64,000 nucleotides of DNA from Bacilli bacterium (GTDB taxonomy: Bacteria > Bacillota_I > Bacilli_A > RFN20 > CAG-826). Location of the stretch: NCBI GenBank assembly GCA_045628045.1, contig JAZQOV010000001.1, positions 32,001 to 96,000 of the forward strand. The letters run 5' to 3'. Both the position numbers and the translations under genes were made by a program. Below, one piece after another: positions 3-63,998 of this stretch (within the stretch, counting starts at the first letter, position 1; each line of letters begins with the position of its first letter). The notes under the pieces are model-generated. The model was given only the letters and a program-made list of their open reading frames with translations. It was not told where the DNA came from and did no database searches.

Positions 3-428
3 TTAGACTGGTCAAAAACTTTATCAAACGTATGTGCTCGCGTTCATCTCGTACATAGAAGAACAGAATTTAGAGGAAATCCAGACACAATTAAAGGATG
101 TAAAAATTTAGATGTTCATTTGCCATTTGTTCCGCATAGTTTAAATGTAGAAAATGGTAAAGCAACATCCGTTTCTATAAGAAATGTTGCAAATGAGAAT
201 GAAATTCTTGTCTTACCAACGGATTATATTTTCGTAAATTTCGGAAATGTCGCTTCTTTCCCTTTATACCCATTTAAAATGATCAATTCTTTCCTTGCTA
301 CAGATGAAAATTTAGTTATAGAAAAGAATATTTTCGCAATCGGAGATGTTTCTCAACACGAAAATAAAACCAGACGCATTGCGCCTGGTAATTTGGAAGC
401 TGATAAAGTTTTCAAACAAATTATTTAG
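3..428 (+). CDS. NAD(P)/FAD-dependent oxidoreductase, thioredoxin reductase-like ferredoxin-NADP+ reductase family (5' truncated by window edge)
   Basis: Frame is open from position 3: LDWSKTLSNVCARVHLVHRRTEFRG... The DW..L...V.L.HRR..FR and C-terminal IFAIGD motifs match the TrxR/YumC family. Confidence 0.8.
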   Translation, partial: LDWSKTLSNVCARVHLVHRRTEFRGNPDTIKGCKNLDVHLPFVPHSLNVENGKATSVSIRNVANENEILVLPTDYIFVNFGNVASFPLYPFKMINSFLATDENLVIEKNIFAIGDVSQHENKTRRIAPGNLEADKVFKQII

Positions 429-951
429 AAGTTTGCTCTTCAAACTTTTTATAGTAAGCACGAATTTCCTCATCAATGAATGGAAATTCTTTTTTATTTA
501 TCATTGAGTAGACTTTGTCTACTGATTTTTGAAGAACGTCTTTAATTTCTTCACTATAGCCTTGCTCTTCAGCGTGTTTTTTGTATTCATTAACGTCTAA
601 TAGACGTGTTGTTCCATCTTCATAAAGTTTGATGTCTAAATCGTAATCAATGTACTTTACAAAACCTTTATCATAAATAGCTGGAGAAGCAATATTTACA
701 TAGTAACAAATCCCTTTTTCTTTAAGCATTGCGATTACATTGAACCAATGTTTCTTAGAAAGAATGAAGATTGCTGGTTCTTTTGTGTGCCATTTTCTTC
801 CATCGCTTTCAATGACAGCGGCCCTAATAGAAGCAAAGATAAAATAATCATCATTCTCTTCTATAGAATAGGAATGAGTCCACTCTCTATGAATTTCTTC
901 GTTGTGCTTATAGGCTTGAATAATAACCCATCTTTTATCTAACGTTCTCAT
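421..951 (-). CDS. DUF402 family protein (YgaC/Ntdp-like nucleoside tri/diphosphate phosphatase)
   Basis: IQAYKHN..IHREW, E.DGR.W.TKEPAI, WFNVIAM, YYVNIASP and YIDYDLDIK motifs. Confidence 0.85.
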   Translation of the reverse strand: MRTLDKRWVIIQAYKHNEEIHREWTHSYSIEENDDYFIFASIRAAVIESDGRKWHTKEPAIFILSKKHWFNVIAMLKEKGICYYVNIASPAIYDKGFVKYIDYDLDIKLYEDGTTRLLDVNEYKKHAEEQGYSEEIKDVLQKSVDKVYSMINKKEFPFIDEEIRAYYKKFEEQTSK

Positions 952-1889
952 TATTTATTGAGGGCCTCCAGTAATTCACAAACGGCTTTAATATCTTTTT
1001 TGTACTTTTCAGTTGGTTTTGAATCAAATTCATTTTGCATCGGGAGAATCATTAAAGGATCATCATAGCCCATCATTATGTAGGCTTTGCCTTCATAAAG
1101 TGAAATAGCTACATCAACAAGAATTTTCTCTGTTTTAATTGCGTTTAAGGCTTTCGTGACTGGTCCAGTAATAACTTTTTTCCAATCTTTACCATTTGTA
1201 TAAATTGCCATTTTGTTATCTTCAAAAACATTTTTAACTTCTTCTAAATTTGTTGGAGGAAGAGCTCTATCATTGCCTTTTAAATAAACAAAAATTGGTG
1301 TTTTTCCTTTATAGGAAACTTTTCCTCTTAACATTTTACCAACAAATACAGGTTTCATGCTTCTCGCAGCTTTAATATTTCCTGCACAATCAACAATGCT
1401 AAGATCTAATTTCTTATATTTAAAAGTTGTGAGACCTCTTGAGCCTGTTTCACTAACATCTTTATATAATTTACATTCGTTAAATTCATCTAATGTGATT
1501 TTGCCAGGGCTTTGTAATTCAACATCCTTAAAATCTTTTGAATCTAAAGCGAATTCATTAATGCACTTAAAATATTCATTAAAGTAGATTTTTAATCTGC
1601 GATCGAATTTTTTGCGAACCCAGAAGCTGTATGCTAAACCAGCACCTAGGAAAACAATTGTGACAAGTAAAGTCACTGCTCCACGTGCTTTTTCTGGAAT
1701 AAAAGCCATTCTTGGAACAAGAACAAAAGCAACAATGACTGCTATAAAACAGAGCACTGCAACAATTGTTTTAACTGAATTATGCTTTTTATAAGATTTC
1801 CAGAATTCCAATCTTTTATCTTCGATAACTTGCAAAGATTTATGCGGATATTCTTTCTTATTTTGTAATTCTTTTGCGTCATTTTTCAT
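951..1889 (-). CDS. Hypothetical membrane protein (2 N-terminal TM helices plus soluble domain)
   Basis: 312-aa ORF with upstream GAGGA SD; its stop overlaps the next start by 1 nt (TAATG). Confidence 0.7.
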   Translation of the reverse strand: MKNDAKELQNKKEYPHKSLQVIEDKRLEFWKSYKKHNSVKTIVAVLCFIAVIVAFVLVPRMAFIPEKARGAVTLLVTIVFLGAGLAYSFWVRKKFDRRLKIYFNEYFKCINEFALDSKDFKDVELQSPGKITLDEFNECKLYKDVSETGSRGLTTFKYKKLDLSIVDCAGNIKAARSMKPVFVGKMLRGKVSYKGKTPIFVYLKGNDRALPPTNLEEVKNVFEDNKMAIYTNGKDWKKVITGPVTKALNAIKTEKILVDVAISLYEGKAYIMMGYDDPLMILPMQNEFDSKPTEKYKKDIKAVCELLEALNK

Positions 1890-1941
1890 ATTTGAAAATC
1901 CTCAGATATCTCTTTAATAATACGAAAATAGTTAAGCATTA

Positions 1942-2487
1942 TCAAATGCTTCTTAATGGATAACGCTGGTTTACCAATAAAATTGGTTTGTAAAGAAGAA
2001 GCATAGCGGCAAGTACAACTCCGCATACTGGTCCGATATATAAAATGTTGTAAATTAACCCTTCAATAAATGTAACTTTATAAAATAAAACCGATGATAT
2101 TGTGCTTGAAAGTAGTCTGCCTGTGCATCCCAAAATTACTCCAAGGCACATAAACAAAATCCCGGATAAAGTTATCTTTTCTTTAATAATAAACGGTTTA
2201 AAAAATCCAATTATTGCTATTGAACCAAAACCAAGAATGTAATCAAATGGTATTGAGTAAAATGGTTCTGCATCCTGAATAAAAGCTAGAAAAGCGTAAA
2301 CAATTCCAATAGAAACAAAACCTTTGAGTGGTCCAAACCTAAGTGCAAGAATAAAAAGCGGAATCATTGTCAAAGATATTGAGCCGCCATTTGCACCAAC
2401 TTTTATTTTTAAAAAAGGGATGTCTAAAACAATAGCTAGTGCCACTAGCATTGACATTTCTGTGATTTCTCTTACTGTTAATTTCAA
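1942..2487 (-). CDS. thiT: ECF-type thiamine transporter S component ThiT
   Basis: GGSISL.MIP and FDYIL.F motifs; hydrophobic; directly downstream of a TPP riboswitch; TTG start. Confidence 0.9.
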   Translation of the reverse strand: MKLTVREITEMSMLVALAIVLDIPFLKIKVGANGGSISLTMIPLFILALRFGPLKGFVSIGIVYAFLAFIQDAEPFYSIPFDYILGFGSIAIIGFFKPFIIKEKITLSGILFMCLGVILGCTGRLLSSTISSVLFYKVTFIEGLIYNILYIGPVCGVVLAAMLLLYKPILLVNQRYPLRSI

Positions 2488-2526
2488 AATAAAATCCGCC
2501 TTTGTAGCGGATCATTTTAATTAAAA

Positions 2527-2616
2527 AATTACCTCCGCTAGCATTACCTAGATCAGGTTCGGTTTAGCTTCGCAATAGAAGCAATCTCAGCCGAGTAATC
2601 TCAGCTCCCGTAAATA
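2527..2616 (-). promoter_or_regulatory. TPP (THI-box) riboswitch
   Basis: Minus strand reads CGGGAGCUGAG-AUUA-CUCGGC-UGAGA...ACCG-AACCUGAUCUAGGUAAUGCUAGCGGAGG, matching the TPP aptamer core; lies upstream of thiT. Confidence 0.93.
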
Positions 2617-2628
2617 AGTATAATTTTT

Positions 2629-3285
2629 TTAGTTATTCCAATCAATAACTTTTAAGTTTTTCTTCTCTAAAAATTTGTTGCATTCAATGAATGTATTTTG
2701 ATTAAACCAACCACCTTGATTTGCACCTAATGGAGATGGGTGAGTTCTCTTAATAACTAGGTGATTTTTGTTTGTCAAATACTTCTCATATTTTTGTGCG
2801 TTTCCACCCCAAAGCATGAAGACAATTGGTTGATCTAAATTATTCAAAAAACCCAGTAATTCCTTGATAAATTTCGAATAATCCTTACTTTTGTGAGACA
2901 TTGGTTGGCCTTCTCTAACAGTCAAAATTGTATTGATCAAAAACACACCTTGTGTTGTTAAATAAGTGAGATCTCCTTGCTTCTTACATGGCTTGCCAAA
3001 TTCAATTTCGATCTCCTTAAAAATGTTAATTAATGAAGGAGGACATTTGCACTCATTTGGAACAGAAAATGCGAGTCCCATTGCTTGACCTTTTTCGTGA
3101 TATGGATCTTGCCCAATAACAACAACTTTTGTCTTTTCAAGTGGAGTTAAATTAAAGGCATTAAAGATTAAATCTCTTGGTGGAAAAACAACATGATTTT
3201 TGTATTCCTCATCCCAAAATTTATTTAGGTTTTTAAAAAAATCTTCATCTTTAATTTGTTCAAAAAAATCTTTCCAGGTTTTCAT
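2629..3285 (-). CDS. ung: Uracil-DNA glycosylase (family 1)
   Basis: GQDPYH, GLAFSV, PPSL.NI, LWG and HPSPL motifs. Confidence 0.96.
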   Translation of the reverse strand: MKTWKDFFEQIKDEDFFKNLNKFWDEEYKNHVVFPPRDLIFNAFNLTPLEKTKVVVIGQDPYHEKGQAMGLAFSVPNECKCPPSLINIFKEIEIEFGKPCKKQGDLTYLTTQGVFLINTILTVREGQPMSHKSKDYSKFIKELLGFLNNLDQPIVFMLWGGNAQKYEKYLTNKNHLVIKRTHPSPLGANQGGWFNQNTFIECNKFLEKKNLKVIDWNN

Positions 3286-3342
3286 AACAATAATTATATC
3301 TATGATTTAGACCGAATAACAATGTATAATTGTATTAGGTCT

Positions 3343-6727: not shown

Positions 6728-6842
6728 ATTTATTAGTATTATATACTATTGATTTCGCCTTTAACATATTTTGATAATTCCAAAGACAATAAATAAATTT
6801 TTGTCTTTTGTTTTTTGAGTTTTTCGCACATATAATAAATGC

Positions 6843-8306: not shown

Positions 8307-8317
8307 TATTTGTAAAT

Positions 8318-19916: not shown

Positions 19917-19985
19917 GCCTTCATTTTAAAACAAAATATACGAAAATAAAATAAAAAATCCTCAAATGAGGATAATTTATCCATT

Positions 19986-20379
19986 TGGTGGAGTCGGCGA
20001 GAATTGCACTCGTGTCCAGAGAAGGCCCCACAGCAACGTCTACAGCTTAGACGATATTTTAAGATTTAACGAAGCATCACATATCGTAGCTATCTTCGCG
20101 AGACTCATTGGATTTCGGTGAACTTTAGCGAGTCAACTGTGTCTTCCTATCCTTTTGGTATGACACCTTTACTAGACGTGAAAGGAATAAAACTCTAGGA
20201 GGTGTGCTGTCCGGCCTCTAAGGTCGGTCCCTATGTCGGGTAGCTTAAGCTAAACAGCAAGCTTGAGCTCTAGGAGCTCTCATATAACTGTTGTCAGTTA
20301 TTTTGTTTTGGTATTTATGGTTACCAGCCAGCTGCAGTCACTGCCAGGCGATCAACCCTGTCGAAACTAAGTCGACCCC
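19986..20379 (-). ncRNA. ssrA: tmRNA (transfer-messenger RNA)
   Basis: 5' GGGGUCG pairs with 3' CGACUCC-ACCA (G3.U Ala determinant). UUUCGAC 5' motif. AUAACU precedes resume codon GAC. Tag ORF 20295-20245 = (A)DNSYMRAPRAQACCLA*. Confidence 0.95.
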
Positions 20380-26659: not shown

Positions 26660-26884
26660 TTAGAACTTTCCGAAGATTATTCTGAGTAAAAACTCAACAA
26701 TTGCAATTGGAACTAAGAGAATGATTCCAATAAGTGAGCCAAGACAGTCAACAAGAACTTCTAATGCACCGGCAACAACGCCAATGAGGCATCCGAAGAT
26801 ACCATAACTAAAAAGTTGTGCGACTGAATGAAGATTACCCCAGATTAATTTAATCGAAGTTATACAGCTAGTTGCTATTCTCAT
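26660..26884 (-). CDS. Small hydrophobic protein (74 aa), copy A
   Basis: AGGAG SD; promoter TTGAAA-17-TATAAT (26936-26908); 53/74 identical to the neighbouring copy. Confidence 0.8.
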   Translation of the reverse strand: MRIATSCITSIKLIWGNLHSVAQLFSYGIFGCLIGVVAGALEVLVDCLGSLIGIILLVPIAIVEFLLRIIFGKF

Positions 26885-27004: not shown

Positions 27005-27229
27005 TTAGAATTTACCAAATAATAATCTGAGGAGGAGTTCTACTAATCCAACTGGAAGAGCAAGAACGAAACCGATTACGGATCCGATGCAATCGACAAC
27101 AACCTCAAATGCACCGACAACAACACCGATAAGGCATCCAAAGAAGCCATATCCGAAGAGTTGACCGACTGCGTGGAGGTTACCCCAAATTAATTTAATC
27201 GAAGTTATACAGCTGTTAAAAATTCTCAT
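27005..27229 (-). CDS. Small hydrophobic protein (74 aa), copy B
   Basis: GAAAGG SD; promoter TTGTAA-17-TATAAT (27281-27253); paralog of copy A. Confidence 0.8.
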   Translation of the reverse strand: MRIFNSCITSIKLIWGNLHAVGQLFGYGFFGCLIGVVVGAFEVVVDCIGSVIGFVLALPVGLVELLLRLLFGKF

Positions 27230-27290: not shown

Positions 27291-27587
27291 TTAATCTACT
27301 TCCACAACCTCGCTAAAACCAGTCATATCAAATATTTCTTTAATTAGCGAAGAAGTATTAATAATTGTAAGTTTTCCTTTACCATTTAATTCTTTTGAAA
27401 CGGCTAGAATTACTCTTAATCCTGCGGATGTAATGTATTCAACATTTTTGAAATCTAAACAAATATTGCTAATTTTTTTCATTACTTTGCGTATTTCTTT
27501 ATCAAAAGCGCCAGCTGTTTGAGTATCAATACGTCCCTCAATTAAGATTTTTGCGGAATTTTCTTCTTTAATAATCTCTATTTTCAT
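27291..27587 (-). CDS. STAS-domain protein (anti-sigma factor antagonist family)
   Basis: GRIDT.TA, LDF..VEYITSAGLRV and IFDMTGF motifs; promoter TTGTAA-17-TAAAAT. Confidence 0.9.
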   Translation of the reverse strand: MKIEIIKEENSAKILIEGRIDTQTAGAFDKEIRKVMKKISNICLDFKNVEYITSAGLRVILAVSKELNGKGKLTIINTSSLIKEIFDMTGFSEVVEVD

Positions 27588-34528: not shown

Positions 34529-35740
34529 TTAAAACTCCTCAAAATATTCGGTGTTTATTACGAATTTTGATTTGTGATTATCAACAAAATTCTTTCTATA
34601 TCTTGGCACATACAAAAGTTTGCCGTTTGTGTCATAAATTCCTGGCCAAATTTTCCTTAAAAATAAAGGCATTTTCCAATCTATAAAAAGTCGTGATATT
34701 TTTGAAGAATAATCTTTGATTATAATTTTGTCTTTTTGATTAGCATTTTGCACAAATAATTCTTTGTCTTTTAAATCTATTTTTCTATCTTCTGTTCCTG
34801 ATGAAAAATCAACATCTAGAAATTCAGTTTTAACACTATTTTTAAAAAGAATTTTGTAATTCCTCATTTTATTCTTATTAACAAAGTAGACTTCATCGTA
34901 GTCAAGTTCGAGTAAAAGTGATTTTGTAATATCGAAACCAATGCATGATTTTGTTCTAAAAGCTTTTTTAATTTCTTCAATAAAGTTTCTAGATAAATCT
35001 CTATGTTCACCAATTTTGTTCATGTATGTATCAAGAAGATCAATAATTTCTTCATATGTTAACGCGAGGAAACCTTCTTTTGTTTTACATTCTTTTGTTA
35101 ATTTACATCTTTCGTTAATTCTCTTAATCTCCAGAAGAACATTTTGTCTTTCTGCCTCATTCATTTTTTCTACAACGTGGTGTCTAAAAACGTTTCTTGT
35201 ATAACGATCTGTTAAATTTGATTCATCGATTGAAAATGGAACGTTATTAGATAGGTCATAATCTTTTAATTCTTGTTTTGAATAAGAAAGTAATGGACGC
35301 AAAACATTTACTCCTAAAAGTTCATTTTCTTTGGAAATTCCCGCATATTTTACGTAATTTCCGCGCTTTTTCTGCATTAAATAAGTTTCAATAACATCAT
35401 CTTGTTGGTGTGCTACGAGTACTGCATCAGCACTCTCTTTATCGCAAATGTCTTTAAAGAATTTATATCTTGTTTCCCTTGCCCACTCTTGGAAATTTCC
35501 TTCGTGTTTAATTCCGAGCAAATCTAATATATGACATTTAATATTTTGTTCTTCACAGAACTTCACAAGATTATTTTGCTCGTCTATCGAAACTGCTCTT
35601 TTCCTATAATTAACGTGCGCGACCACAATGTTTAATTTTTCCTTTATTGCAGCATCCAAAAGAGCCATTGAGTCCGGTCCAAACGAACAGGCAATAACAT
35701 ATTTCTTATTTTTATCTAAGTGTAAATTAATCTTTTTCAT
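34529..35740 (-). CDS. tilS: tRNA(Ile)-lysidine synthetase
   Basis: Start reassigned to ATG 35740; S.GPDSMAL, AHVNY, AR..RY, AH..DD..ET, RPLL and D.SN....YTRN motifs. Confidence 0.94.
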   Translation of the reverse strand: MKKINLHLDKNKKYVIACSFGPDSMALLDAAIKEKLNIVVAHVNYRKRAVSIDEQNNLVKFCEEQNIKCHILDLLGIKHEGNFQEWARETRYKFFKDICDKESADAVLVAHQQDDVIETYLMQKKRGNYVKYAGISKENELLGVNVLRPLLSYSKQELKDYDLSNNVPFSIDESNLTDRYTRNVFRHHVVEKMNEAERQNVLLEIKRINERCKLTKECKTKEGFLALTYEEIIDLLDTYMNKIGEHRDLSRNFIEEIKKAFRTKSCIGFDITKSLLLELDYDEVYFVNKNKMRNYKILFKNSVKTEFLDVDFSSGTEDRKIDLKDKELFVQNANQKDKIIIKDYSSKISRLFIDWKMPLFLRKIWPGIYDTNGKLLYVPRYRKNFVDNHKSKFVINTEYFEEF

Positions 35741-38700
35741 TTCTCTTTGAATGCTTTCTATAAAGTGTATCAACACATTCAATAATTGTTTCTAAATCTT
35801 TCATCCAATTATCAATTTTCTTAAGCCTAATTTTTAAAACTTTCTGAATATAAGTAACGCTAACCTTTGCTAAATATGGAGACAAAGTTTCAAACAAATG
35901 GGAACCAATTCCAGAAATTGAAGTAAATGAATTTGACAAAACAATATCAATAAATTCAGGATATTCATTTACATTTTCAAATTCTTCATTTTGCATCAAT
36001 AAGTCTATTCTTCTCTTATTAATTAACATTATAACTTCTTGTGGAATTCTACCGTAAATATCGCGTAATTTTGCTTTTATCCCCTGTAATTCCCTAATAT
36101 TTTTTGCATTTTCGATTTCTTGATAGAATTCAACTTTATCCTCTTTTTTCATGTACTCTTCAGGAATGTATGCATCGATGTTAAATAACTTAACAGGTTT
36201 TGGTGGCTCATAAACTTTTCCGGTTTTTCTCTCCTCAATAACTTCATTCAAAAGTTTGAGATAAAGTTCCAATCCAACCGAGTCAATAAAACCAGCTTGT
36301 TCAGGGCCTAAAATATCTCCTGCTCCGCGAATCATTAAGTCTCTTTGAGCAATCTTATAACCTGAGCCTAACTCTGCAAAATCTTGAATTGCTTTTAATC
36401 TCTTTTGAGCAATTTTATTTATTACTTTATTCTCATTATAGAAAAGATATGCATACGCGATTCTGTTACCACGACCAACTCTTCCTTTAATCTGATAAAG
36501 CTGAGACAAACCAAAGTGATCTGCGTCTTCAATAATGATTAAATTTGCGTTTGGAATATCAATACCATTTTCAATAATTGATGTTGCGACAAGAACATTA
36601 ATTTCTCCTGTGTAGAACTTCATCATCGTGTCTTCAATAAGTTCTTTATCCATCTTTCCATGAATAACACCAACGCTTGCAGAAGGAATTGTTTTTTGAA
36701 TTTTATGAGCAACTAAATTTATCGAAGAAACCACGTTATGTATGTAAAAAACCTGGCCTTTTCTCGTTAATTCTCGTTCAATTAGCTCTCTGCAGACACC
36801 TTCATTAAATGGTGAAACATAGGTTTGAATTGAAGATCTATTTTCTGGCGCAGTGTTGATTTGAGACACTGGTCTAACACCAATTAAAGATAATTGAAGT
36901 GTTCTTGGAATCGGGGTCGCAGAAAGAGACAAAACATCAATATTTGTTTTTAGTTCTTTTATTCTTTCTTTTTGTTCAACACCAAATCTTTGCTCTTCAT
37001 CAACAACTAATAAACCAAGGTCTTTGAATGTGAAATCTTTGCTTAATAATCTATGCGTTCCAATGACTAAATGTGTTGTGCCATCTGCGATAGATTTTAT
37101 GTATTCCTTTTGAATTCTTTCGGGAACCAACCTAGAAATAATTGCAATGTTAATTCCAAAATTTCTAAACCTCTCTAATGCAAGTTCGTAATGTTGTCTC
37201 ACAAGAAGAGTTGTTGGACATAAAATTGCTACCTGTTTTCCAGAATTTATTGCTTTAAATACGGCTCTAAATGCAACTTCGGTTTTTCCAAATCCAACAT
37301 CGCCACAAAGTAAGCGATCCATAACATCGATTGACTCCATGTCTTTTTTAATATCATCAACTGCGCGTGCCTGATCTTCTGTTAATTTATACGGGAATTC
37401 CTTCTCAAAATCCCTTTGAAAATCGTCATCTTTTGCAAAAGCGAACCCTTTTCCATGTGCTCGTTCACTATATAACGCAAACAATCTATCAGCGAGTTCG
37501 TTGATTCTAGTTTTGATTTTAGATTTAGTTTTCTCCCAATCATCTGCATTAAGGTTTGAAAGCTTTGGTTCTGCGCCTTCTCGGCCAGAATATTTTCTTA
37601 ATAATCTAAACTGATTTAATGGAATGTATAATGTGCTTGTTCCTGAATATTGAACGTGAATAAAATCTCTATGAATTCCATCAACCTCAAGAGTTTTTAT
37701 GTCTAAGAATTTTCCAATTCCATAATACTCATGAACAACAAAATCACCAGGTCTTAATTCTTCATATGTTCTTAAAATTGTGGCTTCTTTAAATCTATTC
37801 AAAAATCTTGATGTTCTGCTTTGAAAACCAAACAATTCTTTTGATGAAATAAAGGCTATATTTTGATCAACAATTTCAAAGCCTTCCTCAAGCGAAAAAA
37901 TAGTAATTCCAATCTTCTTTTTTGGAATCTCTAGACCATTCAAAATTTCATAATCTAAATGTTCGGATTTTAAGAACTCTAAAACCGTATCATATTGTTG
38001 TTTGTTAGAAAGCGCTAAAACAATTTTTGATGATAATGATGTGTATTGTCCAAGTAAGATTTTAATATTACCCGCGGTACTTTTTGTGTAAATAATTGGA
38101 TTAATTTTAAATTCGATTTCATCGGGATTTTTCTTATAAATATTCGAGAAAAGCACGTGTTTTTGATATTTCACAACATTATTAAATGAGTCATAAAGTT
38201 CCAGATGAGAAATGAGTTTTCCTTGTTCATTTAATTGTAAGAAATATTCTCTTGCTTCTTTGTTTAGGAACTCTAATGTTGTGTCAAATTGATCTTTGTT
38301 TGAAACAAAAACTAAATCAGGATTAAAGTAATCAACAATTGTGTTTGTGAAATGTTTAACATAACGGGTAAATTTATATAAAGAAGGATGATAAATTCTA
38401 TGCTCAATTCTTTCTGAATCTTGCATCGAATTTTCTTTTAGTTTTTGAGCGATTTCTGAATTCAAATTTTTACAATCTTTTTCAATTTGTGATTGAAGCT
38501 TTTCCTTAAATTCTTCAACCTCTAAATCTGTGAATAAAACATCGTTTGCAGGTTCAAAAGAAACGCTTTCTAATTCCTTATCAGAAAGCTGGGTTGCAAT
38601 ATTAAAATAATGAATGCTTTCAATTTCGTCTCCAAAAAATTCAATACGAATTGGTTTATCATGTGAGACAGGATAAATATCTAGAATGTCGCCTCTACTT

Positions 38701-42975: not shown

Positions 42976-45603
42976 ATGGCAAAGAAATACATCTACAACT
43001 TCAAAGAAGCCCATGGTTTAGGCAAAGAGTTGTTAGGTGGTAAAGGTGCTGGTTTAGCAGAAATGACCAGTATTGGAGTTCCAATTCCACAAGGATTTAC
43101 CATCACAACAGAAGCTTGTAATCTCTACTATGATTCAGGTAAAAAGTTACCAAAAGAAATCATTGATGACATTTACAAACACATCGAAGAAGTTGAAAAA
43201 GAAACCGGAAAGAACTTCGGTGGCGATCATAACCCACTTTTAGTCTCAGTCCGTTCTGGCGCAAGAGTTTCCATGCCAGGTATGATGGACACCATCTTAA
43301 ACTTAGGTTTAAATGATGTTACAGTCGCAGCCTTAGCAAAAGAAACTGGTAACGAAAGATTCGCATTTGATAGCTATCGTAGATTTATCTTAATGTTCAC
43401 AAACATTGCAAAAGGTCATCCAAGAACCGAAATGGATAAGATGCTTGATGAATTAAAAGAAAAGAATGGCTACAAACTCGATACAGAAGTTACTGCCGAA
43501 CAATTAAAAGATTTAGTCAAAGCTTATAAAGCTTACTATAAGAAAGTATTTGGTGAAGAATTCCCAACTGATCCAAAAGTTCAATTAATTGAAGCTGTTA
43601 CAGCAGTTTTCCGTTCCTGGGATAACCCAAGAGCTAACGTTTATCGTATGATGAACTCAATTCCATATTCATGGGGTACCGCTGTTAACGTTCAATCAAT
43701 GGCTTTCGGTAATAAGGGTGAAACATCTGGTACAGGGGTCGCATTCTCACGTGACCCAGCTACAGGTGAAAAGAAAATTTCTGCAGAATATTTACCAAAC
43801 GCACAAGGCGAAGACGTCGTCGCAGGTATTCGTACACCACTTCACATCGAAGAACTCAAGGCACGTATGCCGGATGTCTACGCACAATTTGAAAAAACAA
43901 TCAAAACAATGGAACACCATTATCGCGATATGCAAGATATGGAATTCACTGTCGAAGAAGGCAAACTCTATTTCTTACAAACACGTAATGGTAAACGTAC
44001 ACCAGCCGCAGCTCTTAAGATCGCTTGCGACTTAGTCGACGAAGGATTAATTACAAAAGAAGAAGCAGTTCTTCGTATTGATCCAGTTTCATTCGATAAA
44101 TTGCTCTTACCAGCATTCGATAAAGATGAACTTGCTAAAGCAAAACCAATCGCAACAGGCTTAGCCGCAGGTCCAGGTGCAGGTACAGGTGCAATCGCAT
44201 TTACTGCTGAAGAAGCAGAAAAACGTCACGCAGCCGGAGAAAAAGTTGTTCTTGTTCGTGCTGAAACTTCACCAGAAGACATTGTCGGTATGGTCGCAGC
44301 CGAAGGCGTTCTCACAATGCGTGGTGGTATGACCTCACACGCAGCAGTTGTCGCTCGTGGTATGGGTAAGTGCTGTGTCTGTGGTTGTAAAGAAGCTGTC
44401 ATTGATGAAGAAAAACGTACAGTTACAATCGATGGCAAAGTCTACACAGACAAAGATGTCTTATCACTTGATGGTTCAACCGGTAAAATTTATCTTGGTT
44501 CAATCGCAAAAGTTATGCCAGACTTAACCGCAGGTTACTTTGGTAGACTTATGGGTTGGGTTGATGAAGCTCGTAAACTCAAAGTCAGAACAAATGCTGA
44601 TACTCCAAGAGATGCAAAACAAGCAAGAGAATTCGGTGCTCAAGGTATTGGCCTTTGCCGTACAGAACACATGTTCTTCGATAAAGACAGAATCTTCTCT
44701 ATGAGAAAGATGATTCTTGCAGACACTGTTGAAGAAAGACGTGCTGCATTAGCAGAATTAGAGCCAATGCAACAAGCAGACTTCGAATCATTGTATGAAA
44801 CAATGTTACCATTCAATGTTAACGTTCGTTTACTCGATCCACCTCTACACGAATTCCTCCCACAAGAAGAGGATAAGATTGAAGAACTTGCTAAAGCAAC
44901 AGGCAGAACTGTCGCACAAGTTAAAGAAAGAATCGAATATCTCCACGAATTCAACCCAATGATGGGTCACCGTGGCTGTAGATTAGCTGTTTCATATCCA
45001 GAAATCTGTGAAATGCAAACAAACGCCATCATCAAAGCCGCTATTGCAGTTATGAAGAAAACTGGCAAAGCTATCGAACCAGAAATTATGATTCCACTTG
45101 TACTCGAAGTTAAGGAACTTAAGTTCGTTAAGAAGATTATTTGCGAAACAGCAGATAAGTTAATTGCAGAATCTGGTCTCAAGATGAAATACCATGTTGG
45201 TACAATGATTGAAATCCCAAGAGCTGCATTACTCGCAGATGAAATCGCAGGCGAAGCTGAATTCTTCTCATTTGGTACAAATGACTTAACACAAATGACA
45301 TTTGGTTTCTCACGTGATGATGCTGCTAAATTCTTACCAGATTACTACAGCAACAAGATCTTAGAAGAAGATCCATTCAAGACACTTGATCAAAAAGGTG
45401 TTGGAAAACTTGTTGATATGGCTGTTAAACTTGGTCGTTCAACACGTAAGGATCTCCACATTGGTGTTTGTGGTGAAACTGGCGGTGAAGCAAACTCAAT
45501 CGACTTCTACCATAGAGCAGGACTCGATTATGTCTCATGTTCACCATTCCGTGTTCCAGTTGCACGTTTAGCTGCTGCTCAAGCTGCAATTAGAAACAAA
45601 TAA
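42976..45603 (+). CDS. ppdK: Pyruvate, phosphate dikinase
   Basis: Start reassigned to ATG 42976 (AGGAGG SD); LLGGKGA.L.EM, SVRSGA..SMPGMMDT, GGMTSHAAVVARG, GIGLCRTEHM and FSFGTNDLTQ motifs. Confidence 0.98.
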   Translation: MAKKYIYNFKEAHGLGKELLGGKGAGLAEMTSIGVPIPQGFTITTEACNLYYDSGKKLPKEIIDDIYKHIEEVEKETGKNFGGDHNPLLVSVRSGARVSMPGMMDTILNLGLNDVTVAALAKETGNERFAFDSYRRFILMFTNIAKGHPRTEMDKMLDELKEKNGYKLDTEVTAEQLKDLVKAYKAYYKKVFGEEFPTDPKVQLIEAVTAVFRSWDNPRANVYRMMNSIPYSWGTAVNVQSMAFGNKGETSGTGVAFSRDPATGEKKISAEYLPNAQGEDVVAGIRTPLHIEELKARMPDVYAQFEKTIKTMEHHYRDMQDMEFTVEEGKLYFLQTRNGKRTPAAALKIACDLVDEGLITKEEAVLRIDPVSFDKLLLPAFDKDELAKAKPIATGLAAGPGAGTGAIAFTAEEAEKRHAAGEKVVLVRAETSPEDIVGMVAAEGVLTMRGGMTSHAAVVARGMGKCCVCGCKEAVIDEEKRTVTIDGKVYTDKDVLSLDGSTGKIYLGSIAKVMPDLTAGYFGRLMGWVDEARKLKVRTNADTPRDAKQAREFGAQGIGLCRTEHMFFDKDRIFSMRKMILADTVEERRAALAELEPMQQADFESLYETMLPFNVNVRLLDPPLHEFLPQEEDKIEELAKATGRTVAQVKERIEYLHEFNPMMGHRGCRLAVSYPEICEMQTNAIIKAAIAVMKKTGKAIEPEIMIPLVLEVKELKFVKKIICETADKLIAESGLKMKYHVGTMIEIPRAALLADEIAGEAEFFSFGTNDLTQMTFGFSRDDAAKFLPDYYSNKILEEDPFKTLDQKGVGKLVDMAVKLGRSTRKDLHIGVCGETGGEANSIDFYHRAGLDYVSCSPFRVPVARLAAAQAAIRNK

Positions 45604-48867: not shown

Positions 48868-50181
48868 TTATTTTCCAACACAGAATCTTGAAAAAATTTC
48901 GTCTGTTAAATCGTTTTTATTATTTTGTCCAAGTAAGTCCAATGAACAATTGTATGCTGCCATAATGCTAACTGAAATTAGATCAATTGGCTGATTTTCA
49001 TTTGTATCTTTAATTGCATTTTCTAAATAGAATGACATTTGTTTTAAAATGCCTAATTGTCTTGTGTTATTAAATGAAGGTTTGATAACCAAATCTCCAA
49101 TATTTAGTTCATTTTTCATAGCTTTTAAAAGTTCGGAAATATCGCCGTTTTTTGCGGAAATATATAGGTTTTCCTTAGTCTTTTTGCTAATTAGGTCTGC
49201 TTTATTATAAACAGAAATGTAATGTTTATTTTTTACTAACTCAAACAAATTTTTATCAATTCCTGTTTCATCAACTACGAACAAAATAAGATCAGCATTT
49301 TCAATCGCTTTCTTTGCTTTATCAATTCCGATTTTTTCAATTAAATCTTCTGATTCGTGAATCCCTGCTGTATCAAATAAATGAACAGGAACTCCTGATA
49401 AAGAAAACTCGCCTTCAACAACATCTCTAGTAGTTCCAGCAATTGAAGTAACAATAGCTTTTTCTTCTTTGATAAGTGCATTAAGTAAAGATGATTTTCC
49501 AACATTTGGCTTACCAACAATTGCTACATTAACACCTTGTTGATAAATTTTATTTTTCTCGCCATCTTCAATTAAAACATTTATGTTCTTTAAAATATTT
49601 GAGCACTTTTCAAGAATTTCTTCCTTACTAGTAACTTCAATGTCTTCGTACTCTGGATAATCAATATTTACCTCAATGTGAGATAAAATCTCACCAATCT
49701 GATCTTTAATTGGTTTAAATATCTTAGAGGTTTCACCAACAAGTGAGACCATTGATAAATCTTTAGCCTCTGCAGTTGTGGCATTAATCATATCGTTAAT
49801 TGCTTCTGCTTGAACCAAATCTATCTTGCCATTTAGAAATGCTCTAGAAGAAAATTCTCCGTTCGTAGCCATTCTTGCGCCATTCTTTAAAAGAACAGAA
49901 ATTATTTGATTCACAATTAACATTGAACCGTGAGAAATAATCTCAACTGAGTTTTCTCCTGTAAATGAATGTGGCGCGACATAAGCAAGTAAAACAACTT
50001 GATCAATCTTAGATTTGCCATCAACTATGTAACCGTAGTGAATTCCACGTTCTTTTATATTAGTTAAGTCTTTAGTAAAAGCTTTTGAGACAATCTTAAA
50101 ACAATCATCTCCAGAAATACGAATGATTGCTAGAGCTGATTTAGCGGCAGGAGTTGCGAGTGCTACAATTGTCTCAAACAT
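48868..50181 (-). CDS. mnmE: tRNA modification GTPase MnmE
   Basis: TIVALATP, P.SFTGE, GEF..RAFLNGK.DL.QAE, GKPNVGKSS, GTTRD and C-terminal FCVGK. Confidence 0.97.
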   Translation of the reverse strand: MFETIVALATPAAKSALAIIRISGDDCFKIVSKAFTKDLTNIKERGIHYGYIVDGKSKIDQVVLLAYVAPHSFTGENSVEIISHGSMLIVNQIISVLLKNGARMATNGEFSSRAFLNGKIDLVQAEAINDMINATTAEAKDLSMVSLVGETSKIFKPIKDQIGEILSHIEVNIDYPEYEDIEVTSKEEILEKCSNILKNINVLIEDGEKNKIYQQGVNVAIVGKPNVGKSSLLNALIKEEKAIVTSIAGTTRDVVEGEFSLSGVPVHLFDTAGIHESEDLIEKIGIDKAKKAIENADLILFVVDETGIDKNLFELVKNKHYISVYNKADLISKKTKENLYISAKNGDISELLKAMKNELNIGDLVIKPSFNNTRQLGILKQMSFYLENAIKDTNENQPIDLISVSIMAAYNCSLDLLGQNNKNDLTDEIFSRFCVGK

Positions 50182-53355: not shown

Positions 53356-54711
53356 ATGAACGAGACAATTTCTGAATTGCAAAGTTCTTGGACACGAATT
53401 CAAGAAGAACTAAATAAAACAATTGAAGACAGACATTTTTTCGATGTTTATTTATGCGACTCATACATTCACGTTATTAATAATGGAGTTATGGAGGTCG
53501 TTTTAGCATCAAATTTAGCTGTTAAAATTCTTAGTTCTAAGTACACATCAGTTGTTCAAGATGCAGCAAAACTTGTTTTGGGACAATCTTTAAAAGTTAA
53601 ATTTGTAACAAAAGATGAGACCAAACCAATAGAATCTCTTTCTAATAAGAAAGAGGAATTCTTCCAAAGCCAAGTTATCAACCCTTCATTAACATTTGAT
53701 AGCTTTATTACCGGCCCTTCAAATCTTGAGGCTAAACAAGCAGCACTTTATGTTGCTTCAAATCCAGGCAAAGGATTTAACCCATTATTTATCTATTCCA
53801 ACTCTGGTTTAGGCAAAACACACCTTATGCACGCAATCATTAACTATGTTAAAGAAAGCATGCCAGGCAAAAAAGCACTTTATTGCGATTCTAACGATTT
53901 CTTATCTGAATATGTTAAATATGTTACGGGGGTGAATAAAGGATCTTCGTTTAAAGATTACATTACTAGTTTCGATTTCTTCCTTATTGATGATATTCAA
54001 AATATTGCTACAAGAGAGCACACATCATTGTTCTTCTTCGATATATTCAATATCTTACATTCACACGGAAAACAAATTGTTATCACAAGTGATAAACACC
54101 CTGGAGATCTTAAGTCATTTGATGAAAGACTCAAATCCAGATTCTCTGCTGGTCTAACAGTTTCAATAGAGCAGCCAGACGTACAAACTTGTGTGTCGAT
54201 TCTTAGAAATAAAATCGATAAGAGTTTGCTTGATATAAATACCTTTGATCCAAAAGTTCTAGAATTTATCGCTGAGAACTTCTCAAAGAACATCAGAGAT
54301 ATTGATCACGCATTCAATAAATTACTTTGGTACGTTACTAGCTTCAGACCTACAAGATTCATTGATATGGATATCGCATATGAAGCACTTCAATCTTTGA
54401 TTGATGTAAAACAAGCAAAGACAAAGCTTAACGAACAAAGAATCCTAGCAGTGGTTGCAGATTACTACAACAAAACGCCATCTCAGCTTACTGGAACATC
54501 AAGGCAAGGTGAAATTGTGTTCGCAAGACACATTGCAATGTATTTAATAAGAAAAATGTTAGATACGCCTTACACCAAAATTGGAATTATATTTGGCGGC
54601 AAGGACCATTCAACTGTTATGAGTGGTGTTGAAAAGGTGGAAAAAGAGTTGAAAACTAACCCTAATATTGAGACTGTTATTTCTGAGATTAAAAACCTCT
54701 TAAAAGCATAA
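53356..54711 (+). CDS. dnaA: Chromosomal replication initiator DnaA
   Basis: TFD.F..G.SN, FNPLFIY...GLGKTHL, LIDDIQ, RL.SRF..GL and GGKDHSTV motifs. Confidence 0.98.
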   Translation: MNETISELQSSWTRIQEELNKTIEDRHFFDVYLCDSYIHVINNGVMEVVLASNLAVKILSSKYTSVVQDAAKLVLGQSLKVKFVTKDETKPIESLSNKKEEFFQSQVINPSLTFDSFITGPSNLEAKQAALYVASNPGKGFNPLFIYSNSGLGKTHLMHAIINYVKESMPGKKALYCDSNDFLSEYVKYVTGVNKGSSFKDYITSFDFFLIDDIQNIATREHTSLFFFDIFNILHSHGKQIVITSDKHPGDLKSFDERLKSRFSAGLTVSIEQPDVQTCVSILRNKIDKSLLDINTFDPKVLEFIAENFSKNIRDIDHAFNKLLWYVTSFRPTRFIDMDIAYEALQSLIDVKQAKTKLNEQRILAVVADYYNKTPSQLTGTSRQGEIVFARHIAMYLIRKMLDTPYTKIGIIFGGKDHSTVMSGVEKVEKELKTNPNIETVISEIKNLLKA

Positions 54712-54835: not shown

Positions 54836-55954
54836 ATGAGATTTACAATAGATAAAGAATCTTTAATGAAAGGATTGACCTTAGTAAGCAAAGCCGTTCC
54901 TCAAAAAGCTGAACTTCCAATTCTTTCATATTTCAAATTAGCTTTAACAGAAAAAGGCTTAGAAATTACAGGATCAGATAACAATATTACTATTTCAACA
55001 ATTGTTCCTTTTATGATTGGTGAAAAAGAGATAATTAGAAATTCACAAGAAGGATCTACTTTAGTAGGTGCAAAAATTTTTATTGAAGTTGTTCGTCACC
55101 TCGAAGACGAAACTTGTACATTTGAACTTATTGATACTTCAATTCTTAAAATCGAAGATTCAAAATCAAATTTCAAACTAAATTCTCTTAGAGCTGATGA
55201 ATATCCAGACATCGATTTAAGCGTTTCTGGGGCCTCTTTATCAATCCAAGGCAAAGATATTCAAGCTATCGTTGAATCAACGGCATTTGCCGCTTCTATT
55301 AAGGAAACAAGGCCAATTTTAACTGCAGTCAACCTCGAAGCAGGTGATTTTAAGCTCACCGCGACTGCAACTGACACCGCAAGACTAGCTAGAAAATCAA
55401 TTGATATTGAATCGGAAGCAAAATTTGTTGCTAATATTGCAGCCAAAAAATTACTCGACATTGTTAGAAGTTTTGAACCAAGTGATGAAGTTACGATTGC
55501 TGTCAGTGAATCGAAAGCAGTTTTTGCATTTGGAAACTCAGTTATTTCAACAAGATTAGTCTCTGGAGACTATCCAAACACAAAAAATATTTTCCCAACA
55601 ACTTTCAATTATTTTCTTGAAGTCAATGCTCAAGAGTTGTTGAAAGCCATGGAGAGAGTTTCACTTTTATCAACTGAATATGAGGGCGTAATTAAACTTG
55701 TAATGGATGAAGATGAGGTTGAGATGATTTCAAGATCTTCTGCTGTTGGTTCTGCAAACGAAAAACTTTCAGTTTTTCAATATTCAGGCGAGCACCTTGA
55801 AATCTCATTTAAAGCATCGTTTGTCGCAGACGCAATTCGTGCTTGTAAGAGTGAGGATGTGACCATTGCATTTGTTGGCGAAATGAAGCCATTTGTTGTC
55901 AAGAATGTCAAAGATGCATCAGTCCAAATGCTGCTCACTCCATTGCGCTCATAA
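54836..55954 (+). CDS. dnaN: DNA polymerase III beta sliding clamp
   Basis: LPILS, ETRPILT.V, ATD..RLA, RLV.GDYP and MKPF motifs; position after dnaA. Confidence 0.97.
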   Translation: MRFTIDKESLMKGLTLVSKAVPQKAELPILSYFKLALTEKGLEITGSDNNITISTIVPFMIGEKEIIRNSQEGSTLVGAKIFIEVVRHLEDETCTFELIDTSILKIEDSKSNFKLNSLRADEYPDIDLSVSGASLSIQGKDIQAIVESTAFAASIKETRPILTAVNLEAGDFKLTATATDTARLARKSIDIESEAKFVANIAAKKLLDIVRSFEPSDEVTIAVSESKAVFAFGNSVISTRLVSGDYPNTKNIFPTTFNYFLEVNAQELLKAMERVSLLSTEYEGVIKLVMDEDEVEMISRSSAVGSANEKLSVFQYSGEHLEISFKASFVADAIRACKSEDVTIAFVGEMKPFVVKNVKDASVQMLLTPLRS

Positions 55955-55991
55955 ATAGCGAAAAATTGATATTTAAAACATATTAAAAATT

Positions 55992-56020: not shown

Positions 56021-56064
56021 ATATATGATACAATATCTCCAGAGGACAGAAATTTACCTTTTTT

Positions 56065-59359: not shown

Positions 59360-59377
59360 TGAAAGGAGAAAGAAAAA

Positions 59378-61897: not shown

Positions 61898-61989
61898 AAA
61901 TATCCGCAAAAAAGTGTAGATTTTGAAAAGTTATGTGCGAATTTCCTATGATTTTCGCACATAACTAATTAAAGAAAGAAGGATTGAAT

Positions 61990-63270
61990 ATGATTGATAT
62001 TAAATTAATTCTTGATGATCCTAAAGCTATTGAAGCAAAGTTAGCCAAGAAAGGATGCAAAGTTGATTTTGCACCTCTTGTTGAACTTTCTAAAAAACGT
62101 AAGGAACTTCTTTTAAGTGTTGAGAATGCAAAAGCAGAAAGAAATAAACTTTCCGCAAGTGTTCCGCAAGTTAAAAAAGAAGGCGGAGATGTTAATGCAA
62201 TTTTTGCAAAGGTCAAAGAGATTGCTGCAAAGAGTGCAAAAGACGAAGAAGAACTTAATAGAGTTGAGGAAGAAATTAAAAACTTTATTCTTCCACTTCC
62301 AAATTTACCAGATGATGATTTACTTGCTGGCGGAAAAGAGAATAACAAAGTTATTCATGAATATGGAAAACCAATTAAGTTTGATTTTGAAGCAAAAAAT
62401 CACGTTGATTTATGTGAATCACTTGGCTTAATTGATTATGAACGTGGCGCAAAAATGAGCGGACACGGATGTTGGGTTTACACAGGCCTTGGCGCTCAAC
62501 TTGAATGGGCACTTCTTAATTTCTTCATTAGTGAACATCTTAAAGATGGATACACAATGATTCTTCCTCCACATATGCTTAATGAAGAATCTGGTTATGT
62601 TGCAGGTCAATTCCCAAAATTTAAAGAAGATGTTTTCTGGCTTAGCAATGCTGAACCAAAGAAATTCATTCTTCCTACAGCAGAAACAGCCTTAGTTAAT
62701 ATGCATAGAGATGAAATTCTCTCCGAAGATGAACTTCCAAAGAAATATTTCGCTTACACTCCATGCTATCGTAGAGAAGCAGGCACATATCGAACCGAAG
62801 AACGCGGTATGATTAGAGGTTATCAATTTAATAAAATTGAAATGTTCCAATACACCACAGAAGAAGGCGATCAACCTGCATTTGAAGAACTTGTAAAAAA
62901 AGCAATTTCGCTCCTTGATAAGTTAGGTCTTACATTCCGTGTTTCTAAACTTGCAGCAGAAGATATTACTGCATCAATGGCTAGAACATATGATATTGAA
63001 ATATATATTCCATCAATTGGAATTTACAAAGAAGTAAGTTCTGTTTCAACAGCACATGATTATCAAGCAAGACGTGGAATGATTAGATATCGTGATAAAG
63101 CAACAGGCAAAACCAAATATGCTCATACATTAAATGGTTCTGGCTTAGCAACTTCGCGTGTATTTCCAGCTTTAGTGGAACAATTCCAACAAAAAGATGG
63201 ATCAATTAAAATTCCAGAAGTGCTTAGACCATGGATGGGCGGACTTGAATATATCAAGCCAAAGAAATAA
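61990..63270 (+). CDS. serS: Seryl-tRNA synthetase
   Basis: Start ATG 61990 (GAAGGA SD); LPTAET, YRREAG, RG.IR..QF.K.E and HTLNGSGLA motifs. Confidence 0.97.
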   Translation: MIDIKLILDDPKAIEAKLAKKGCKVDFAPLVELSKKRKELLLSVENAKAERNKLSASVPQVKKEGGDVNAIFAKVKEIAAKSAKDEEELNRVEEEIKNFILPLPNLPDDDLLAGGKENNKVIHEYGKPIKFDFEAKNHVDLCESLGLIDYERGAKMSGHGCWVYTGLGAQLEWALLNFFISEHLKDGYTMILPPHMLNEESGYVAGQFPKFKEDVFWLSNAEPKKFILPTAETALVNMHRDEILSEDELPKKYFAYTPCYRREAGTYRTEERGMIRGYQFNKIEMFQYTTEEGDQPAFEELVKKAISLLDKLGLTFRVSKLAAEDITASMARTYDIEIYIPSIGIYKEVSSVSTAHDYQARRGMIRYRDKATGKTKYAHTLNGSGLATSRVFPALVEQFQQKDGSIKIPEVLRPWMGGLEYIKPKK

Positions 63271-63293
63271 TTCCTAAAAAAGAAAGGTCTCAA

Positions 63294-63998
63294 TTATGAG
63301 ACCTTTTTTACTGCCAATTTCTGTTTTCTTTTTATTTTTAAATTTCTCCACAGAAGTCCAAGATAAGTTGAAAGAGGGAACACAATAATAAACGAAACTA
63401 AATAAGGCCAAAATATTACTGGCTCATCTCCTAAAAGCGGAGTAAGAATCTGAGCGGACACATTTAAAATAATTATCCAGGAAATAATATAGATTTCGTT
63501 AATTGCACTGCTGAATTTAAAGATTGCTTTGTTAAGAAACTTAGGAGTAATCTTGCAGATGAAATGGAATAATGCAAATTCCACAAAAACAACGCCTATT
63601 GCCGCAAGAGCATAAATAAGTGAGCCAACATATTCAGGATCGGTTTCAGCATAGGTTATAAAATAACCTTCAAGACCTAAATGGTAATCTAAAAGTAAAA
63701 CTGTTGTAGTAAGTACTGCTCCAGCAACTCCAAGAATTATATAAAATCTATTTAAGTTCTTAAGTTTTTTAATTGTTACACCTAGAGTGTTTCCGACCGC
63801 TACAAAAATAAACCATGAGCAGAATGAGAAAACAGTTACTGGGTCAGTTAAGTCTTCGCTAACAAAGTTAACTGGAATAAAAGATCCAAGAAGAAGTGAT
63901 TCTGTAAAGCTGCTTGGTTCTTTCACTTTAAATATTTCTGAAATAATTAATAAGATAATAGCAACAATTAAGATAATAAGATCATTATGTTTTTTAAT
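63294..63998 (-). CDS. Polytopic membrane protein, possibly acyltransferase-3-like (5' end outside window)
   Basis: Frame stays open to the window edge; multiple TM segments; S..INEIYIISW resembles the AT3 C-terminal IY..H motif. Confidence 0.5.
   Translation of the reverse strand: MKKHNDLIILIVAIILLIISEIFKVKEPSSFTESLLLGSFIPVNFVSEDLTDPVTVFSFCSWFIFVAVGNTLGVTIKKLKNLNRFYIILGVAGAVLTTTVLLLDYHLGLEGYFITYAETDPEYVGSLIYALAAIGVVFVEFALFHFICKITPKFLNKAIFKFSSAINEIYIISWIIILNVSAQILTPLLGDEPVIFWPYLVSFIIVFPLSTYLGLLWRNLKIKRKQKLAVKKVS

What the first reader, a model, noticed from the sequence alone, without database searches (positions are those of the whole stretch)
3..63998. No in-frame CGG codon in any called gene: candidate unassigned or reassigned codon
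Seen: I checked CGG (plus-strand genes) and CCG (minus-strand genes) occurrences against reading frame in the called CDSs, which cover most of the 64 kb, and found none in frame. CGA, CGC, CGT, AGA and AGG are all used, as are other GC-rich codons (CCG, GCG, GGG). AGG sits at conserved Arg positions (DnaN ETRPIL, DnaA TSRQG), so it is still Arg. Known: CGG is unassigned in Mycoplasma capricolum, and CGG->Trp and AGG->Met reassignments were reported in uncultured Bacilli clades (Shulgina & Eddy 2021). Inference: this lineage may have vacated CGG or use it rarely with a new meaning. The manual scan could have missed an instance.
Basis: partly seen in the sequence, partly recalled or inferred. 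Interest (0 to 1): 0.72.

Follow-up and report, generated by a model that had tools for sequence, protein, structure and literature searches.

The report
Very rare CGG codon, still arginine
An uncultured gut bacterium has no tRNA gene dedicated to the arginine codon CGG and has almost stopped using it, but its few remaining CGG codons sit at conserved arginine positions and are likely read by a neighbouring arginine tRNA, an ordinary state already tabulated for this genus rather than a new genetic code.

Summary
Observation confirmed: 0 in-frame CGG in 50 genes (19,762 codons) of the window. It does not hold genome-wide: the 1.07-Mb genome has about 16-19 in-frame CGG (0.4-0.6 per 10,000), so only 0.7-1.2 were expected in the window (P of zero 0.3-0.5). 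CGG is the rarest codon and is truly depleted. No tRNA-CCG was found (45 tRNAs; none in 37 genus genomes by pattern), but tRNA-Arg(UCG) and (ACG) with arginine identity elements, tadA and mnmEG are present. Where CGG can be aligned it is arginine: R in 29 of 29 orthologues at two sites, 15 of 18 at a third; across the genus R or K at 44 of 56 sites, W at 1. One site in a foreign gene aligns to Gln (113 of 120). DnaA places the genome in Ca. Fiminaster (UBA3207; CAG-826, RFN20), which Shulgina and Eddy 2021 already list as an outgroup with UCG, no CCG, rare CGG, called Arg in 4 of 6. Best reading: weak wobble reading by tRNA-Arg(UCG). Not unassigned, not reassigned. No earlier scan note on this was shown.

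The parts
3..63998 (.). 50 non-nested protein-coding ORFs of 100 aa or more (table 11), 19,762 codons, none of them CGG
48868..50181 (-). mnmE (U34 modification GTPase), one of the enzymes that could modify the wobble U of tRNA-Arg(UCG); mnmG lies on another contig
   Evidence: TIGR00450 over cut-off; mnmG
34529..35782 (-). tilS (lysidine synthetase); its substrate tRNA-Ile2(CAT) is on contig C3
   Evidence: TIGR02432 over cut-off
53356..54711 (+). dnaA, used to place the genome in Ca. Fiminaster (UBA3207); carries AGG at the conserved Arg of TSRQG (54502-54504)
54836..55954 (+). dnaN; AGG at the Arg of ETRPIL (55310-55312)
19986..20379 (-). tmRNA gene; explains the only short gap ORF with a CGG (19966-20121, +) as antisense noise
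   Evidence: Rfam RF00023, 88 bits
9162..9521 (-). nested off-frame ORF with one CGG inside the 8371-12645 gene; not a gene
43718..44954 (.). two shadow ORFs (43718-44035 +, 44640-44954 -) with one CGG each inside the 42892-45603 gene; not genes

Best explanation
CGG is the rarest sense codon of this AT-rich genome and still sits at arginine positions; with no tRNA-CCG gene found, it is likely read as arginine, inefficiently, by U34-G wobble of tRNA-Arg(UCG), whose main job is CGA. Shown: the near absence of CGG, the tRNA set (Arg ACG, UCG, UCU, CCU; no CCG), tadA and mnmEG genes, and Arg at the aligned columns. Inferred: TadA converts ACG to ICG, which reads CGU/CGC/CGA but not CGG; CGG therefore depends on the UCG tRNA; AT-biased mutation plus selection against a weakly read codon hold CGG at about 3-5% of the already rare CGA. 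The tRNA-CCG was likely lost once, at or before the origin of the genus. The modification state of U34 is untested.
For: Genome-wide CGG exists: 19 in 14 of 873 ORFs, 9 after dropping the first 60 codons, 16 in 791 genes by another filter. Own sites: MTS-family methyltransferase codon 109 R in 29 of 29 congener orthologues; ComFA-like helicase codon 291 R in 29 of 29 (2 of them also CGG), codon 212 R in 12 of 29 with no W; radical-SAM codon 42 R in 15 of 18 homologues, one of them 98% identical; PAP2 codon 137 R in the 2 closest of 7. These CGG are not assembly errors: spanning contigs of other strains show no listed change in them. Genus: of 70 well-flanked CGG sites 14 faced another CGG; of the other 56, R 34, K 10, W 1, close to CGA (R 73%, K 13%) and AGG (R 67%, K 16%) and unlike TGG (W 87%). 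They include invariant Arg in CFRDEDL[R]QDRQPEF, [R]YKGLGEM, ADL[R]VIQELLG and rpsJ codon 8 in three genomes. tRNA-Arg(UCG) has A20, C35, G36, G73 and was found in 19 of 24 genus genomes. CGG/CGA is 0-0.086 in this genome and 7 congeners without tRNA-CCG, 0.15-1.35 in 5 family members with it, and 0.024-0.069 in the 12 published UCG-without-CCG, low-CGG genomes. Internal control: the one other missing isoacceptor is Pro-GGG, and CCC is the second rarest codon.
Against: No decoding experiment exists. One CGG, in a 46%-GC foreign gene, faces Q in 113 of 120 homologues and R in none. Five more own sites are uninformative (Fic 289: R 2 of 120 in a variable column; foreign gene 57 and 185; RnfC 6: T in one homologue; GNAT 119: N in one). 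CGG is 0 in 154,829 codons of the 461 best-adapted genes and 0 in 78,180 codons sampled from G033, so reading may be very poor. The radical-SAM gene is shorter (255 aa) than its 333-aa near-identical homologue and may be split. tRNA-UCG was not found in 5 of 24 genus genomes, among them G032, which has CGG in rpsJ. The assembly is 96% complete, so an unassembled tRNA-CCG cannot be excluded from this genome alone.
Confidence: 0.88

Rival explanations
1. CGG is functionally near-unassigned in this subclade: tRNA-Arg(UCG) reads CGA but hardly CGG, ribosomes stall there and are rescued or proceed slowly, and the few surviving CGG are tolerated burdens in weakly expressed, foreign or nucleotide-constrained genes.
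For: 0 CGG in the 461 best-adapted genes after trimming; CGG/CGA is the lowest NNG/NNA ratio of 13 boxes (0.03 against 0.064-0.37; P=1.5e-6 to 0.007); G033 0 of 78,180 and G007 1 of 33,523 sampled codons; no TrhP or TrhO family found, so U34 may lack xo5U; the genome keeps all 12 other optional C34 tRNAs, hinting that its U34 tRNAs read G-ending codons poorly; codon 109 lies in a stretch conserved at silent sites.
Against: CGG is kept at invariant Arg in intact conserved genes and in other strains; congeners with the same tRNA set use it at 4-6 per 10,000 and in rpsJ and a synthetase motif. This rival differs from the best reading only in degree.
Confidence: 0.08
2. A normal tRNA-Arg(CCG) exists but was not assembled; CGG is rare from GC bias alone.
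For: Assembly 96% complete in 14 contigs; tRNAs are often lost from metagenome assemblies.
Against: 45 tRNAs cover every other needed anticodon; no true tRNA-CCG among 37 genus genomes, while the same kind of pattern finds it readily in other genera of the family (21 of 30 fetched loci confirmed); none in the 6 UBA3207 genomes of the published table.
Confidence: 0.02
3. CGG has been reassigned (Trp as in UBA4855, or Gln as in Peptacetobacter) or is read ambiguously.
For: Same family as the CGG-to-Trp clade's listed neighbours; one CGG at a Gln column in a foreign gene; W in 1 of 7 poorly aligned PAP2 homologues.
Against: [quoted passage not shown]
Confidence: 0.02

Closest known systems
UBA3207 (Ca. 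Fiminaster) and UBA2450 outgroup genomes in Shulgina and Eddy 2021, Figure 4 source data (PMC8629427; supplement 5 parts 2-3 read)
   Same: tRNA UCG present, tRNA CCG absent, CGG 0.6-3.7 per 10,000, CGG/CGA 0.02-0.07, Codetta call Arg (4 of 6 UBA3207, 3 of 5 UBA2450) or undetermined; this genome groups with UBA7029, row 33 of that table.
   Different: Nothing in kind; this genome is at the low end of CGG use (0.35-0.6 per 10,000 by my counts, which are not restricted to Pfam domains).
CGG-to-Trp clade of UBA4855 (RFN20 Bacilli; PMC8629427, passages and supplement)
   Same: Same order, low GC, very rare CGG, AGA as main Arg codon, tRNA ACG present.
   Different: That clade lacks tRNA-UCG and has a Trp-type tRNA-CCG; here UCG is present, CCG is not found, and CGG aligns to Arg.
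Mycoplasma capricolum CGG (Oba et al. 1991, seen only as a reference line, paper not held; Yokobori et al. 2013, PMC3711424, passages)
   Same: No tRNA-CCG, tadA present, CGG reduced to a handful (6 of 1163 CGN there; 9 of 3102 here after trimming).
   Different: M. capricolum has a single ACG/ICG tRNA for the box and is proposed to read CGG with its non-deaminated fraction; here a second tRNA, UCG, covers CGG, as in the Mollicutes that gained UCG.
AGG-to-Met clade of UBA7642 (RFN20, family CAG-288; PMC8629427 passage)
   Same: Same order.
   Different: Different family; AGG here is rare and faces R at 67% and K at 16% of sites.

Membership tests
CGG-to-Trp Bacilli (UBA4855 type) | tRNA with CCG anticodon and Trp identity | tested here: not met
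   no CCG among 45 tRNAs (ARAGORN also at relaxed thresholds; Infernal)
CGG-to-Trp Bacilli (UBA4855 type) | tRNA-Arg(UCG) absent | tested here: not met
   present at C3:147350-147426 and in 19 of 24 genus genomes
CGG-to-Trp Bacilli (UBA4855 type) | CGG aligns to conserved Trp | tested here: not met
   R 29 of 29 at two own sites; W at 1 of 56 genus sites
Unassigned CGG (M. capricolum type) | no tRNA-CCG, tadA present | tested here: met
   tadA 166 bits, over cut-off, C1:96628-97074, open frame with HAE and PCxxC
Unassigned CGG (M. capricolum type) | no other tRNA able to pair with CGG | tested here: not met
   tRNA-Arg(UCG) with A20, C35, G36, G73
Unassigned CGG (M. capricolum type) | translation stalls at CGG | not testable with these tools
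   needs in vitro translation or ribosome profiling
ACG+UCG, no CCG, CGG=Arg (UBA3207/UBA2450 state) | member of genus UBA3207 | tested here: met
   DnaA 78% identical to UBA7029 and sister to it (100/100), inside a clade with Ca. Fiminaster equi (98/98); Fiminaster = UBA3207, CAG-826, RFN20 (PMC8957277 passage); single-gene tree
ACG+UCG, no CCG, CGG=Arg (UBA3207/UBA2450 state) | tRNA set ACG + UCG without CCG | tested here: met
ACG+UCG, no CCG, CGG=Arg (UBA3207/UBA2450 state) | CGG/CGA about 0.02-0.07 and CGG at Arg columns | tested here: met
   0.03-0.05; columns
ACG+UCG, no CCG, CGG=Arg (UBA3207/UBA2450 state) | Arg incorporated at CGG in protein; U34 modification state | not testable with these tools
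   mnmE, mnmG, mnmA found; PF01136 and PF17773 not found; no proteomic or tRNA data
AGG-to-Met Bacilli (UBA7642 type) | AGG aligns to Met | tested here: not met
   R 315 of 473 sites, K 76

The most novel reading that the evidence does not exclude
A subclade of Ca. Fiminaster (this genome, G033, G007) is a living pre-capture intermediate: CGG is purged from all well-adapted genes and is barely readable because its only decoder has an unmodified or A-restricted U34, so one further loss (tRNA-UCG) would free the codon exactly as happened in the related CGG-to-Trp clade.
Probability: 0.1. Interest if true: 0.45.

Novelty: already known. Interest (0 to 1): 0.12.

Why it matters
As found, little: it confirms for one more genome a state already in a published table, and standard table 11 translation is right for this genome. 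It is a tidy example of how tRNA content shapes codon use (CGG and CCC, the two codons without their own tRNA, are the two rarest), and the family offers a natural series (with tRNA-CCG, without it, and with a Trp-type one) for testing codon-capture models.

Tried and rejected
Table 4 reading: rejected, 8 of 50 window genes end at TGA and TGG faces W at 87% of sites. CGG as a stop: rejected, no kept ORF needs it, it is internal in full-length conserved genes, and it is never the last sense codon. CGA or any other codon reassigned: the commonest aligned residue matched the standard code for every sense codon of this genome, CGG aside (that run was contaminated by antisense ORFs and was redone). 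First column test included shadow ORFs, giving spurious Leu and CGG-CGG matches,177 of 3,691 ORFs were dropped as overlapping, yet some rRNA-derived and upstream-of-start sites remain, mostly among the 14 CGG-CGG sites. About half of the 19 CGG lie upstream of the likely start (rplK, ABC ATPase, alpha-amylase, AraA, GGGtGRT). My codon-score gene filter dropped real genes (116 further ORFs listed), which is why three counts are given. Pattern hits for tRNA-CCG in the genus (2, 1, 18) were not tRNAs by ARAGORN; the pattern's sensitivity to a Trp-type tRNA-CCG was not validated, since none appeared among the listed family hits (11 hits not listed). Fic and foreign-gene columns were mostly uninformative. 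No homologues were sought for the TIR-like and pentapeptide sites. RNAalifold gave no covariation support for the side element. Look-ups in earlier scan notes gave nothing on this (with 8 of 39 shown, 59 with 8 of 11 shown).
Full report
Observation. The window is 34% GC and reads by table 11. All 50 non-nested ORFs of 100 aa or more (19,762 codons, 92% of the window) lack in-frame CGG, while CGT 185, CGC 41, CGA 26, AGA 408 and AGG 28 occur and CGG is seen 255 times out of frame. The three longer ORFs with a CGG are shadows of real genes, and the one short gap ORF with a CGG is antisense to tmRNA.

Is zero more than chance? Against the mean G-ending share of four-codon boxes, yes (10.5 expected, P=2e-5). 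Against lineage-aware nulls it is weak (1.2-2.8 expected, P=0.06-0.29). The whole genome (1,071,641 bases, 14 contigs, 96% complete) settles it: 19 CGG in 14 of 873 ORFs, 9 in 260,075 codons after dropping each gene's first 60 codons, 16 in 302,737 codons with a second filter. That is 0.35-0.6 per 10,000, or 0.7-1.2 expected in the window (P of zero 0.3-0.5). CGG is the rarest codon and its ratio to CGA (0.03) is the lowest of 13 boxes (9 seen against 19-32 expected, P=0.007 to 1.5e-6). So depletion is real and absence is not.

Decoding machinery. ARAGORN found 44 tRNAs and Infernal 45; the extra one is tRNA-Ile2(CAT). Arginine has ACG, UCG, UCU and CCU; there is no CCG, also at relaxed thresholds. 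The UCG tRNA carries A20, C35, G36 and G73 (that these mark arginine identity is recalled knowledge). All 12 other optional C34 tRNAs are present. The only other missing isoacceptor is Pro-GGG, and CCC is the second rarest codon. tadA lies 628 bases past the window's end and is intact; mnmE (in the window), mnmG, mnmA and tilS are present; the TrhP and TrhO families were not found. In the genus, UCG was found in 19 and ACG in 21 of 24 genomes at least 85% complete, and no true tRNA-CCG in 37 genomes. Other genera of the family often have an Arg-type one (21 of 30 fetched loci), so loss in or before the genus ancestor is inferred, not tested on a tree.

What CGG means. With CGG masked, orthologues were aligned. 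In this genome: MTS-family methyltransferase codon 109 faces R in 29 of 29; ComFA-like helicase codon 291 R in 29 of 29, codon 212 R in 12, H in 8, K in 3, W in 0 of 29 (families, the ComFA and YbxB names are recalled); radical-SAM CNL[R]C R in 15 of 18, in a gene that may be split; PAP2 R in the 2 closest of 7. Contigs of other strains keep these codons: for the helicase a contig with 21 other letters (run X3) lists none in either codon, and for the methyltransferase contigs of X1 and X7 have all their differences elsewhere (X1 may be the source of the assembly for the helicase and is not counted as independent there). Against: in a 46%-GC foreign gene one CGG faces Q in 113 of 120 homologues, while its other two face P/K and E/R; the Fic site is a variable column with R in 2 of 120; RnfC, GNAT and ABC sites have one or two weak homologues with other residues. 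A single transition from CAG in a recently acquired gene, or the donor's own history, is the likely cause; it was not tested. Across about 1.6 Mb from 8 congeners plus this genome, 70 CGG sites had well-aligned flanks: 14 faced another CGG, and of the remaining 56, 34 faced R, 10 K, 1 W. CGA gave R 73% and K 13%, AGG R 67% and K 16%, TGG W 87%. Congeners put CGG at invariant Arg in CFRDEDL[R]QDRQPEF, [R]YKGLGEM, ADL[R]VIQELLG, DQGTTSS[R]A and codon 8 of rpsJ in three genomes (AspRS, GyrB, XerD, glycerol kinase and rpsJ are names recalled from the motifs).

Mechanism. Inferred: ICG reads CGU/CGC/CGA, UCG reads CGA well and CGG less well, and nothing else reads CGG. CGG use then tracks CGA at a low fixed ratio: 0-0.086 in this genome and 7 congeners (17,000-109,000 codons sampled each) against 0.15-1.35 in 5 family members with a tRNA-CCG (about 15,000 codons each; 1 confirmed by ARAGORN, 4 by pattern only). 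Kin are not independent, so this is a pattern, not a test. Depletion of codons whose dedicated tRNA is missing is reported generally by Diwan and Agashe (PMC6063277, passages). How poorly CGG is read is open: it is 0 in the 461 best-adapted genes and 0 in the G033 sample, which leaves about 8% for a near-unassigned state.

What is known. DnaA is 78% identical to Bacillales bacterium UBA7029 and groups with it (100/100) inside a clade with Ca. Fiminaster equi (98/98) (one gene). Fiminaster is GTDB genus UBA3207, family CAG-826, order RFN20 (PMC8957277, passage). Shulgina and Eddy 2021 (PMC8629427; passages; supplement 5 searched and parts 2-3 of 7 read) list six UBA3207 genomes as outgroups to the CGG-to-Trp clade: all with tRNA UCG, none with CCG, CGG 0.8-3.7 per 10,000, Codetta Arg in 4 and undetermined in 2, including UBA7029. 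CGG/CGA in the 12 low-CGG rows with UCG and no CCG is 0.024-0.069 (three further such rows in GC-rich, 65-87% complete UBA4951 genomes have much higher CGG and were left out). They note that a tRNA-UCG would read both CGA and CGG and hinder reassignment. Yokobori et al. 2013 (PMC3711424, passages) describe the same ACG+UCG strategy in Mollicutes. Oba et al. 1991 was not held. A search for RFN20 + genetic code + CGG returned only the Codetta paper; two broader searches added nothing on this genus at listing level. The Codetta paper's full genome table could not be read and may bear on more genomes of the genus.

Verdict. Real pattern, ordinary cause, already recorded for the genus. CGG is rare arginine, neither unassigned nor reassigned. 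Interest 0.12.

Noticed in passing
G000:C9:23616-24224 (-), codons about 101-130; L159:1720-1818; orthologues L160-L188: In the MTS-family methyltransferase gene between rplL and rpoB, silent sites are unusually conserved across 29 congeners (share of the commonest codon 0.84-0.95 against about 0.55-0.76 elsewhere); Arg109 is CGA in 27, AGG in 2 and CGG here, never AGA or CGT. A GTCAC-N11-GTGAC inverted repeat lies in it, roughly 250-330 bases before rpoB. No Rfam match there, no covariation support, one weak promoter-like site. Possibly an overlapping DNA-level or leader signal for rpoB.
   Followed up: partly
G000:C2:15246-15578; L055, L092, L112: rpsJ codon 8 is a rare Arg codon in all four genomes seen: CGG in G010, G032, G036 and AGG here, suggesting a nucleotide-level constraint at the start of the S10 operon.
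   Followed up: no
G000:C3:100424-100501 (-) and C3:108734-108805 (-): Both the initiator-type tRNA(CAT) and tRNA-Ile2(CAT) have C instead of the near-universal U at position 33 (loop CCCATAA); the Ile2 gene is missed by ARAGORN at default settings but found by Infernal.
   Followed up: no
genome-wide tRNA set: A 1.07-Mb, 33%-GC genome keeps 12 of 13 optional C34 tRNAs and lacks Pro-GGG; CCC is used only 62-93 times and is equally rare in congeners; no TrhP or TrhO family found.
   Followed up: partly
G000:C3:106438-107037 (-); L219:942-1538: A 199-aa gene of 46% GC with no Pfam family among its 120 listed homologues carries 3 CGG, one at a column that is Gln in 113 of 120 homologues; it lies close to tRNA genes and looks recently acquired.
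   Followed up: partly
window 19986-20379 (-): tmRNA gene found by Rfam but missed by ARAGORN.
   Followed up: no
window 26660-26884 and 27005-27229 (-): Two tandem, similar 74-aa hydrophobic ORFs next to a 98-aa STAS-like ORF (27291-27587) (STAS-like is recalled from the sequence).
   Followed up: no
G000:C6:196427-197478 (-); L221: Radical-SAM gene is 255 aa here against 333 aa in a 98% identical database protein, with a further ORF just downstream: probably split in this assembly.
   Followed up: no
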